The notes below the pieces were generated by a model. That model was given only the letters and a program-made list of their open reading frames with translations, ran no database searches and had not been told where the DNA came from. Below are positions 16,324-16,459 of a stretch of 64,000 bases of DNA, piece after piece. The DNA is from Escherichia coli. Its GTDB lineage: Bacteria; Pseudomonadota; Gammaproteobacteria; Enterobacterales; Enterobacteriaceae. How positions within the stretch are numbered: position 1 is the stretch's first letter; the number at the start of each line of letters is the position of its first letter. The translations under genes were made by a program, and so were the position numbers. The DNA is taken from assembly GCF_003334815.1 (NCBI RefSeq), contig NZ_QOWO01000001.1; one strand, 5' to 3'.

Positions 16324-16459
16324 TTCTCCAGCACTCTGGAGAAATAGGCAAGACATTGGCAGAAATGAGCATTGAGAGCCAGGGCGCTGGCGATCACAAT
16401 GAAAAACATCAGGCAGATCGTTCTCTGCCCTCATATTGGCCCAGCAAAGGGAGCAAGTA

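What the first reader, a model, noticed from the sequence alone, without database searches (positions are those of the whole stretch)
16324..16459. Divergent yqhC-yqhD control region
The AraC-type regulator gene yqhC and the aldehyde reductase gene yqhD are divergently arranged with a 136 bp intergenic region, and dkgA follows yqhD. This is the known aldehyde-stress module; the regulator's binding site should lie in this short region.
Basis: established knowledge. Interest (0 to 1): 0.2.

Follow-up and report, generated by a model that had tools for sequence, protein, structure and literature searches.

The report
Known yqhC-yqhD aldehyde-stress control region

Summary
Window 16324-16459 is base-for-base the E. 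coli K-12 yqhC/yqhD spacer. It lies between an AraC-type regulator gene (AraC_N + HTH_18) on the minus strand and yqhD-dkgA on the plus strand. Published EMSA, gSELEX and ChIP-exo all place YqhC in this spacer.

The published yqhD promoter maps to -35 TTGAGA (16372-77) and -10 CACAAT (16395-400). The published 24-bp palindrome is at 16322-16345.

My alignment of 78 enterobacterial spacers shows:
- nearly invariant palindrome arms;
- an ultra-conserved block of three ~10.5-bp direct repeats (16340-16371) abutting the -35;
- a conserved -10.

In homologues only 45-57% identical, the AGGCAA core of the repeat block still sits upstream (P about 2e-8). One co-directional locus keeps the block but lacks the left palindrome arm. 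I therefore infer that the repeat block is the activator site and that the left arm serves the divergent yqhC side.

Caveats and extras:
- The 136-bp length depends on the K-12 start codon. The conserved start is Met20, which gives a 193-bp spacer.
- The yqhD leader carries a conserved hairpin.
- No canonical marbox is present.

Verdict: observation confirmed, interpretation supported, already known, low interest.

The parts
15367..16323 (-). yqhC, an AraC-family regulator. This is the K-12 annotation (318 aa). The start conserved across Enterobacteriaceae is Met20, at 16264-16266 (299 aa).
   Evidence: ORF list; Pfam AraC_N and HTH_18; PGAP start at Met20; start-codon conservation and in-frame stops.
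16324..16459 (.). It is identical to MG1655.
16303..16308 (-). Conserved ATTGTG, which reads CACAAT on the yqhC strand. It is a candidate -10 element for yqhC. This is an inference, not shown.
   Evidence: Mean identity over 16302-16311 is 0.86, against 0.39-0.48 in the flanks. The bases equivalent to A-11 and T-7 are at least 95% conserved.
16322..16345 (.). Perfect 24-bp palindrome ATTTCTCCAG-CACT-CTGGAGAAAT. It corresponds to the published '24-bp palindrome'.
   Evidence: Left arm TTTCTCCAG shows 0.99 identity and right arm GkAGAAAy shows 0.93 identity in 78 species. The centre is variable but has no indels. The pattern is unique in the window. Literature.
16340..16371 (+). Three tandem direct repeats: AGAAATAGGCA, AGACATTGGCA and AGAAATGAGCA, with starts spaced 11 and 10 bp. 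The first and third are 21 bp apart, and the block abuts the -35. I infer this is the YqhC activator site.
   Evidence: The 78-species consensus is rGGCAAGACAwyGGCAGrAATGwGCA, with 0.88 identity. The AGGCAA core persists upstream in homologues 45-57% identical.
16372..16377 (+). yqhD promoter -35 hexamer, TTGAGA.
   Evidence: Promoter scan; published in PMC6115493, citing Lee 2010; 0.97 conserved.
16395..16400 (+). yqhD promoter -10 hexamer, CACAAT. The published initiating base is a C, which is most likely C16407.
   Evidence: The adaptive T77C mutation in the spacer maps to 16400 (PMC10991953). The 78-species consensus is CCACAAT.
16412..16429 (+). Hairpin GGCAGA-tcgttc-TCTGCC in the yqhD 5' leader, at about +6 to +23. 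The published ChIP-exo peak (16401-16431) lies over it.
   Evidence: Mean z-score is -2.28 over 71 distinct leaders.
16447..16453 (+). Shine-Dalgarno sequence AAGGGAG of yqhD.
   Evidence: Sequence; 78-species consensus rAGGkmr, 0.79 identity.
16460..17623 (+). yqhD, the NADPH-dependent aldehyde reductase (Fe-ADH family).
17728..18555 (+). dkgA, an aldo-keto reductase and the second gene of the YqhC-activated operon.

Best explanation
This is the E. coli yqhC-yqhD/dkgA aldehyde-stress control region.

Shown in the literature:
- The AraC-family activator YqhC binds this spacer and turns on the weak sigma70 promoter of yqhD-dkgA (-35 TTGAGA 16372-77, 17-bp spacer, -10 CACAAT 16395-400, start near C16407).
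- Activation occurs when cells meet glyoxal, furfural, glycolaldehyde, glutaraldehyde and related aldehydes.

My inference on the anatomy (probability about 0.65):
- The activator site is the block of three ~10.5-bp direct repeats at 16340-16371 (core AGGCAA, 16346-51). All three repeats lie on one face of the helix and touch the -35.
- This arrangement fits a class-II AraC/XylS-type mechanism, in which the promoter-proximal DNA-binding domain contacts RNA polymerase at the -35.

The 24-bp palindrome (16322-45) shares its right arm with the first repeat. Its left arm (TTTCTCCAG; the TCTCCA at 16325-30 reads TGGAGA on the yqhC strand) most likely belongs to the divergent yqhC side. There it would act as a -35-like element and/or an autoregulatory half-site, paired with the conserved CACAAT at 16303-08 (probability about 0.4).
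For: Identity with the K-12 locus and its genes.

Binding in the spacer:
- EMSA positive probe 16309-16459 and negative probe 16432 to about 16571 confine binding to 16309-16431.
- gSELEX gives a single peak.
- ChIP-exo peak at 16401-16431.

Promoter: published hexamers were recovered independently, and an adaptive -10 mutation maps to 16400.

Phylogenetic footprint from 78 species:
- left arm 0.99, right arm 0.93, repeat block 0.88, -35 0.97 and -10 0.86 identity;
- neighbouring unconstrained stretches show 0.32-0.49 identity.

Distant homologues (45-57% identity):
- AGGCAA occurs in the same orientation upstream in 7 of 8 loci, and L084 has GGGCAA. Strict counting inside annotated spacers gave 8 hits in 1241 nt against a background of 3.5e-4 per nt, P = 2e-8. 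That count misses the L083 copy, which starts 2 nt outside its spacer.
- L083 has its Fe-ADH upstream and co-directional. It keeps ATAGGCAAAACACGGGCAGCTTCGTGCATTGAAGA-17-TCACAAT but has no TTCTCCAG arm.
- L089 keeps both elements.
Against: - I could not read Lee 2010 or Turner 2011. The published mutated 'SoxS-like' site therefore could not be mapped onto my repeat block.
- No canonical marbox exists in the spacer at up to 3 mismatches.
- The ChIP-exo peak lies downstream of the -10, not over the repeat block.
- Secondary papers also name the palindrome as a potential YqhC site.
- The L083 argument rests on a single locus.
- For the proposed yqhC promoter, a GFP fusion made at the K-12 Met1 ATG that carries only 16324 to about 16542 was expressed. 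A yqhC-directed promoter upstream of 16323 must therefore exist or contribute.
Confidence: 0.9

Rival explanations
1. The 24-bp palindrome itself is the principal YqhC operator. A YqhC dimer binds the two inverted arms symmetrically, and the downstream repeats are secondary or are upstream promoter elements.
For: - The palindrome is perfect.
- Its arms are nearly invariant, with a fixed spacing and a free centre, which is typical of a dimer site.
- The literature lists it as a potential YqhC site.
- It lies inside the EMSA-positive fragment.
Against: - It is centred about 73 bp upstream of the yqhD start, far from the -35.
- In L083 the left arm is missing while the repeat block and promoter are kept.
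- AGGCAA, not TTCTCC, is the element enriched upstream of distant homologues.
- AraC-family dimers usually use direct repeats (established knowledge).
Confidence: 0.25
2. The functional YqhC contact is downstream of the -10, over the inverted repeat GGCAGA-N6-TCTGCC (16412-16429), where the ChIP-exo peak lies.
For: - The ChIP-exo peak is at 16401-16431.
- CATCAGGCAG is conserved in sequence.
- GGCAGA also occurs in the upstream repeat block at 16358-63.
Against: - An activator bound at +1 to +25 would block RNA polymerase.
- The same peak is flagged as RNAP-bound, so it may report the polymerase's downstream boundary.
- The right arm varies with compensatory changes, which points to RNA structure rather than a protein site.
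- Two species lack the element altogether (L035 and L054).
Confidence: 0.08
3. The palindrome is the operator of a different, unidentified regulator (for example one mediating the reported cAMP-CRP repression of yqhC and yqhD), not of YqhC.
For: - Negative regulation of yqhC and yqhD by CRP is reported in the review PMC5297802.
- The palindrome's centre and symmetry differ from the asymmetric repeats.
Against: - The sequence has no resemblance to the CRP consensus TGTGA-N6-TCACA (my reading).
- The palindrome co-occurs with the YqhC-type block in the distant locus L089.
- No other factor is reported at this site in the papers I read.
Confidence: 0.07

Closest known systems
E. coli K-12 yqhC-yqhD-dkgA regulatory region (Lee et al. 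2010, J Bacteriol 192:4205; Turner et al. 2011, J Ind Microbiol Biotechnol 38:431)
   Same: The sequence is identical. The genes, the promoter hexamers, the 24-bp palindrome and YqhC binding are the same.
   Different: Nothing differs in sequence. My additions are the 78-species footprint, the three-repeat reading of the site, the start-codon caveat and the leader hairpin.
Class-II AraC/XylS-type activator sites (XylS at Pm, RhaS, MelR): direct repeats about 21 bp apart, with the proximal one overlapping the -35
   Same: The direct repeats AGAAATAGGCA and AGAAATGAGCA start 21 bp apart. The proximal repeat ends at 16371, immediately before the -35 at 16372. The regulator has the family's two-HTH C-terminal domain.
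   Different: There is a third, middle repeat, so the periodicity is 10-11 bp. The N-terminal domain is AraC_N (PF06719), not the AraC cupin. The effector mechanism is unknown: PMC5297802 says it is unclear whether aldehydes act on YqhC directly. No footprint was available to me.
MarA/SoxS/Rob marbox (AYnGCACnnWnnRYYAAAYn)
   Same: The YqhC C-terminal domain aligns with SoxS, MarA and Rob. The literature calls the site 'SoxS-like'. GCA triplets recur at helical spacing.
   Different: No match to the marbox consensus at up to 3 mismatches lies anywhere between 15768 and 17220. YqhC also carries a large N-terminal domain, unlike the single-domain SoxS and MarA.

Membership tests
E. coli yqhC-yqhD-dkgA aldehyde-stress module | An AraC-family regulator with an AraC_N domain and two HTH motifs, transcribed divergently from the target. 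| tested here: met
   Pfam AraC_N at residues 47-197 (2.4e-40) and HTH_18 at 232-307 (1.1e-22). The orientation is shown.
E. coli yqhC-yqhD-dkgA aldehyde-stress module | The target operon is yqhD (Fe-ADH aldehyde reductase) followed by dkgA (aldo-keto reductase). | tested here: met
   NCBIfam PRK15138 at 844 bits (cut-off 645) and PRK11565 at 576 bits (cut-off 425). RefSeq annotation agrees.
E. coli yqhC-yqhD-dkgA aldehyde-stress module | The spacer sequence equals the experimentally studied K-12 spacer, with -35 TTGAGA, -10 CACAAT and the 24-bp palindrome. | tested here: met
   Identity with MG1655 is 100% over 16260-16520. The elements were located and match PMC6115493.
E. coli yqhC-yqhD-dkgA aldehyde-stress module | YqhC protein physically binds the spacer and activates yqhD. 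| not testable with these tools
   The evidence is from the literature only: EMSA (PMC8262776), gSELEX (PMC8249747), ChIP-exo (PMC8464067) and reporter induction (PMC6115493).
Class-II AraC/XylS-type activator site | Direct repeats about two helical turns apart, with the proximal repeat abutting or overlapping the -35. | tested here: met
   Repeats start at 16340 and 16361, 21 bp apart. The proximal repeat ends at 16371 and the -35 starts at 16372. The arrangement is conserved in 78 species.
Class-II AraC/XylS-type activator site | The regulator occupies the repeats and contacts sigma70 region 4 or the alpha-CTD. | not testable with these tools
   This needs footprinting and RNA polymerase mutant analysis.
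MarA/SoxS/Rob marbox | A match to AYnGCACnnWnnRYYAAAYn upstream of, or overlapping, the -35. | tested here: not met
   No match with up to 3 mismatches lies between 15768 and 17220. The window-wide count equals chance: 131 observed against 136 expected.
Intrinsic (Rho-independent) terminator or attenuator in the yqhD leader | A GC-rich stem followed immediately by a U-tract. | tested here: inconclusive
   The hairpin is conserved (mean z -2.28). A T-run of 4 or more lies within 12 nt in 58 of 71 distinct leaders. In the Citrobacter-type leaders the run starts about 3 nt after the stem. Escherichia has only a 2-T run, and the plus strand was not called by the scan.

The most novel reading that the evidence does not exclude
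Two unreported layers may sit in this well-known region.

(a) The K-12 start codon of yqhC (Met1, 16321-23) may be wrong.
- The real start would be Met20.
- The left arm of the palindrome would be the -35 (TGGAGA) of a conserved yqhC promoter whose -10 is CACAAT at 16303-08.
- The palindrome would then couple YqhC occupancy at the yqhD-side repeats to autoregulation of yqhC.

(b) The conserved hairpin plus U-run at +6 to +35 of the yqhD leader, found in most Enterobacteriaceae, may act as a partial attenuator or stabiliser. That would add a post-initiation control step, one that Escherichia has partly lost.
Probability: 0.3. Interest if true: 0.3.

Novelty: already known. Interest (0 to 1): 0.13.

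Why it matters
The module matters in practice. It governs tolerance to furfural, glyoxal and glutaraldehyde, and it is the basis of engineered aldehyde biosensors (PMC6115493, PMC8262776). Its existence and regulator are textbook-level for E. coli, so confirming it adds little.

The useful by-products are practical:
- Conserved control sequence extends into what K-12 annotates as yqhC codons 1-19.
- The Keio yqhC deletion removes the whole control region and the yqhD start.
- The AGGCAA direct-repeat block, rather than the palindrome alone, is the element to keep or mutate when engineering sensors.

Tried and rejected
- Primary papers: Lee 2010 (PMC2916428) and Thomason 2015 are not held, and I know Turner 2011 only through papers that cite it. 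I could not place the published mutated 'SoxS-like' site or a published footprint.
- Full-text search for spacer sequence strings found only primer tables.
- Transcription-start tables: the Cappable-seq supplements held no positions near this locus, and Conway 2014 has no supplements held as text. The yqhC start site therefore stays unknown.
- Rfam: only chance-level hits in 16100-16700, with E values of 1.5 and 2.3.
- Marbox scan: nothing in the spacer.
- The terminator-like call on the minus strand (16430 to 16411 plus GATGTTTTTC) was rejected. The T-run is specific to Escherichia and absent from the other species.
- A second mini-hairpin, CCC-N6-GGG, over the yqhD Shine-Dalgarno sequence has only 3 bp and is missing in the Klebsiella and Raoultella leaders. 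I did not pursue it.
- RNAalifold retained only the 3 outer pairs of the leader hairpin, because inner stems differ in register between genera.
- The search for homologous proteins listed only relatives of at least 85% identity. Distant loci came from the representatives search instead.
- My first palindrome pattern had the wrong gap and returned only chance hits. I corrected it.
- A possible minus-strand promoter built from the reverse of the yqhD hexamers (TTGTGA-17-CTCAAT) was rejected because it lacks the essential A at position 2 of the -10.

Full report
OBSERVATION

The window shows a minus-strand reading frame whose K-12-type ATG is at 16323-16321 ([10 protein letters not shown]...). 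A plus-strand frame starts at 16460 (MNNFNLHTP...), and a third runs from 17728 to 18555.

A 3.4-kb query around them hits 5424 of 5426 complete E. coli genomes. The annotated genes are yghB, yqhC, yqhD and dkgA. The MG1655 record gives yqhC at 3154262-3155218 (complement) and yqhD at 3155355-3156518, a 136-bp gap. Window 16260-16520 is identical to MG1655.

YqhD and DkgA exceed the curated cut-offs of their NCBIfam equivalog models. YqhC carries Pfam AraC_N (47-197) and HTH_18 (232-307).

WHAT IS IN THE SPACER

- A perfect palindrome, ATTTCTCCAG-CACT-CTGGAGAAAT, at 16322-16345.
- Three tandem direct repeats at 16340-16371: AGAAATAGGCA, AGACATTGGCA and AGAAATGAGCA, with start-to-start spacing of 11 and 10 bp.
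- A sigma70-like promoter, TTGAGA-17-CACAAT, at 16372-16400.
- An inverted repeat, GGCAGA-N6-TCTGCC, at 16412-16429.
- The palindrome pattern occurs nowhere else in the 64-kb window.

LITERATURE

- PMC6115493, citing Lee 2010, gives TTGAGA and CACAAT as the yqhD -35 and -10, with a C as the initiating base. [quoted passage not shown]
- PMC10991953 reports an adaptive T77C change in the spacer that alters the -10. Position 77 of the spacer is window 16400, the T of CACAAT.
- PMC8262776 shifted purified YqhC with a probe whose primers map to 16309-16459. A control probe that maps to 16432 to about 16571 was not bound. Binding therefore needs 16309-16431.
- PMC8249747 found a single gSELEX peak in this spacer.
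- PMC8464067 lists the strongest YqhC ChIP-exo peak (S/N 18.66, also RNAP-bound) at 3153318-3153348, mapped to NC_000913.2.
- I converted version-2 coordinates to the window by subtracting 3136917. I checked this with an independent landmark: the sigma54 motif GTGGCATAGGTTTCGCA, published at 3152920, is centred at window 16003. The ChIP-exo peak is therefore window 16401-16431, from just after the -10 through the leader inverted repeat.
- PMC5297802 states that it is still unclear whether aldehydes act on YqhC directly, and reports negative control by cAMP-CRP.
- I could not obtain Lee 2010, and I know Turner 2011 only through papers that cite it.

PHYLOGENETIC FOOTPRINT

A scan of one genome per species returned 80 yqhC loci from Enterobacteriaceae. 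In 78 of them yqhD is divergent, and in 76 of those it lies 190-198 bp from the Met20-equivalent codon. Mean identity to the window by segment, from the spacer alignment:

| Segment | Coordinates | Identity |
|---|---|---|
| K-12 'codons 8-19' | 16267-16301 | 0.39 |
| ATTGTGCGCA | 16302-11 | 0.86 |
| Stretch before the palindrome | 16312-22 | 0.48 |
| Left arm TTTCTCCAG | 16323-31 | 0.99 |
| Palindrome centre (no indels) | 16332-37 | 0.62 |
| Right arm | 16338-45 | 0.93 |
| Repeat block | 16346-71 | 0.88 |
| -35 | 16372-77 | 0.97 |
| Promoter spacer | 16378-93 | 0.49 |
| CCACAAT | 16394-400 | 0.86 |
| After the -10 | 16401-06 | 0.32 |
| CATCAGGCAG | 16407-16 | 0.88 |
| Rest of the leader | 16417-46 | 0.47 |
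| Shine-Dalgarno | 16447-53 | 0.79 |

The consensus of the repeat block is rGGCAAGACAwyGGCAGrAATGwGCA. The footprint independently recovers the published promoter and palindrome. It also shows that the strongest constraint runs continuously from the left arm to the -35.

WHICH ELEMENT IS THE YqhC SITE?

I fetched loci for eight representatives that are 45-57% identical to YqhC.

- AGGCAA occurs upstream, in the same orientation relative to the regulator, in seven of the eight. L084 has GGGCAA.
- Strict counting inside annotated spacers gave 8 hits in 1241 nt, against a background of 3.5e-4 per nt. The binomial P is 2e-8. This count misses the L083 copy, which starts 2 nt outside its spacer.
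- In L083 the Fe-ADH gene lies upstream of, and co-directional with, the regulator. The ADH promoter region reads ATAGGCAAAACACGGGCAGCTTCGTGCATTGAAGA, then 17 bp, then TCACAAT. This is the E. coli block and promoter, but there is no TTCTCCAG arm.
- In L084 the divergent target is a Zn-ADH, preceded by TGGGCAAGGCTTCCGCACGATCGTGCATTGAGGGG.
- L089 keeps both TTTTCTCCA and TAGGCAAGACATCGGCAGGAATCG.

The repeat block therefore travels with the regulator and sits at the target's -35. The left arm appears only where the regulator is divergent.

From this I infer that the repeat block is the activator site. Its geometry matches class-II AraC/XylS sites: direct repeats 21 bp apart, with the proximal one touching the -35. 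I also infer that the left arm belongs to the yqhC side.

This rests on comparative data and, for the left-arm argument, on one informative locus. I give it about 0.65. The canonical marbox is absent from the spacer at up to 3 mismatches, so 'SoxS-like' can only be a loose resemblance.

THE START CODON AND THE '136 bp'

- PGAP starts yqhC at Met20 in other E. coli genomes, and leaves 16267-16459 free of features in every sampled genome.
- Across the 78 species the TTCAT of Met20 is at least 95% conserved, whereas the Met1 ATG is below 50%.
- Fifty-six species, including one genome named E. coli (L006), have an in-frame stop 0-16 codons upstream of Met20.
- Many species have a GGAG at Shine-Dalgarno distance from Met20.
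- Most homologues in the protein database are annotated at 299 aa.
- The first 19 K-12 residues lie outside both Pfam domains.
- The annotation has moved before: the Keio deletion used a 375-aa start at 16494 and removes the yqhD N-terminus.

The conserved ATTGTG at 16303-08 reads CACAAT on the yqhC strand. Its A-11 and T-7 equivalents are invariant, and it lies 16 bp from TGGAGA (16330-25, the left arm). This is a plausible weak yqhC promoter, and it would place the Met1 ATG inside the promoter spacer.

Against this, a GFP fusion made exactly at Met1 and carrying only 16324 to about 16542 was expressed. PMC8262776 also states that the yqhC promoter position is unknown. I leave this open, at about 0.4.

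THE yqhD LEADER

- Nearly all species fold a hairpin starting 4-6 nt after the conserved CATC.
- Over 71 distinct leaders the mean z-score against dinucleotide shuffles is -2.28.
- 58 of the 71 have a T-run of 4 or more within 12 nt after the stem. Escherichia has only a 2-T run.
- On a 48-sequence alignment, the six E. coli pairs are formed in 76% of cells, against 26-59% for slid controls. There are 16 double-change cells against 7.7 +/- 2.0 in shuffles.
- RNAalifold keeps only three outer pairs, because inner stems differ between genera.
- Examples of compensation are GACAGG/CCTGTC in L013 and GGTAGA/TCTACC in L027.
- No Rfam family matches.

The element could be a leaky attenuator, a 5' stabiliser or both. 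It coincides with the ChIP-exo peak, which I think more likely reports RNA polymerase's downstream edge than a YqhC contact.

VERDICT

The system is already known and has been exploited. The remaining open points are the exact YqhC contacts, the yqhC promoter and start codon, and the role of the leader hairpin. These are refinements of modest interest.

Noticed in passing
window 16264-16323: The K-12-annotated yqhC start (Met1, 16321-23) is not conserved. Met20 (16264-66) is conserved, PGAP uses it, and most enterobacterial species have in-frame stops between the two. The 57 bp annotated as codons 1-19 in K-12 behave like non-coding control sequence.
   Followed up: yes
window 16302-16311: A conserved ATTGTGCGCA island (0.86 identity) sits inside poorly conserved flanks. 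On the yqhC strand it reads CACAAT, 16 bp from TGGAGA (the left palindrome arm). It is a candidate yqhC promoter, but a published GFP fusion that lacks it was still expressed.
   Followed up: partly
window 16412-16429 (leader to about 16446): A hairpin in the yqhD 5' leader is conserved, with compensatory changes, across Enterobacteriaceae. In most genera, but not Escherichia, a U-run follows it. It has no Rfam match, and the published YqhC ChIP-exo peak lies over it.
   Followed up: partly
window 15995-16011 (+): A sigma54 promoter-like motif, GTGGCATAGGTTTCGCA, lies inside yqhC in antisense orientation, pointing toward yqhD. It matches the published intragenic sigma54 site IA25 (PMC4591121). 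I used it here to validate the coordinate conversion.
   Followed up: partly
window 17684-17707: A perfect 10-bp-arm hairpin, CTCACCGGAG-CCTG-CTCCGGTGAG, lies in the 104-bp yqhD-dkgA spacer, about 20 nt before the dkgA ATG. It has no T-run, so it may be an mRNA processing or stability element rather than a terminator.
   Followed up: no
window 16324-16494 (Keio JW5849 deletion endpoint): The primers listed in PMC8262776 show that the Keio yqhC deletion was designed on an old 375-aa start at 16494. It removes the entire control region and the first codons of yqhD, so phenotypes of that strain are not clean yqhC phenotypes.
   Followed up: partly
L083 720-806; L084 1753-2000: Distant YqhC homologues (52-57% identity) keep the GGCAA...GCATTGA block at the -35 of an adjacent alcohol dehydrogenase. 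The dehydrogenase can be co-directional (L083, Fe-ADH) or of a different family (L084, Zn-ADH).
   Followed up: partly
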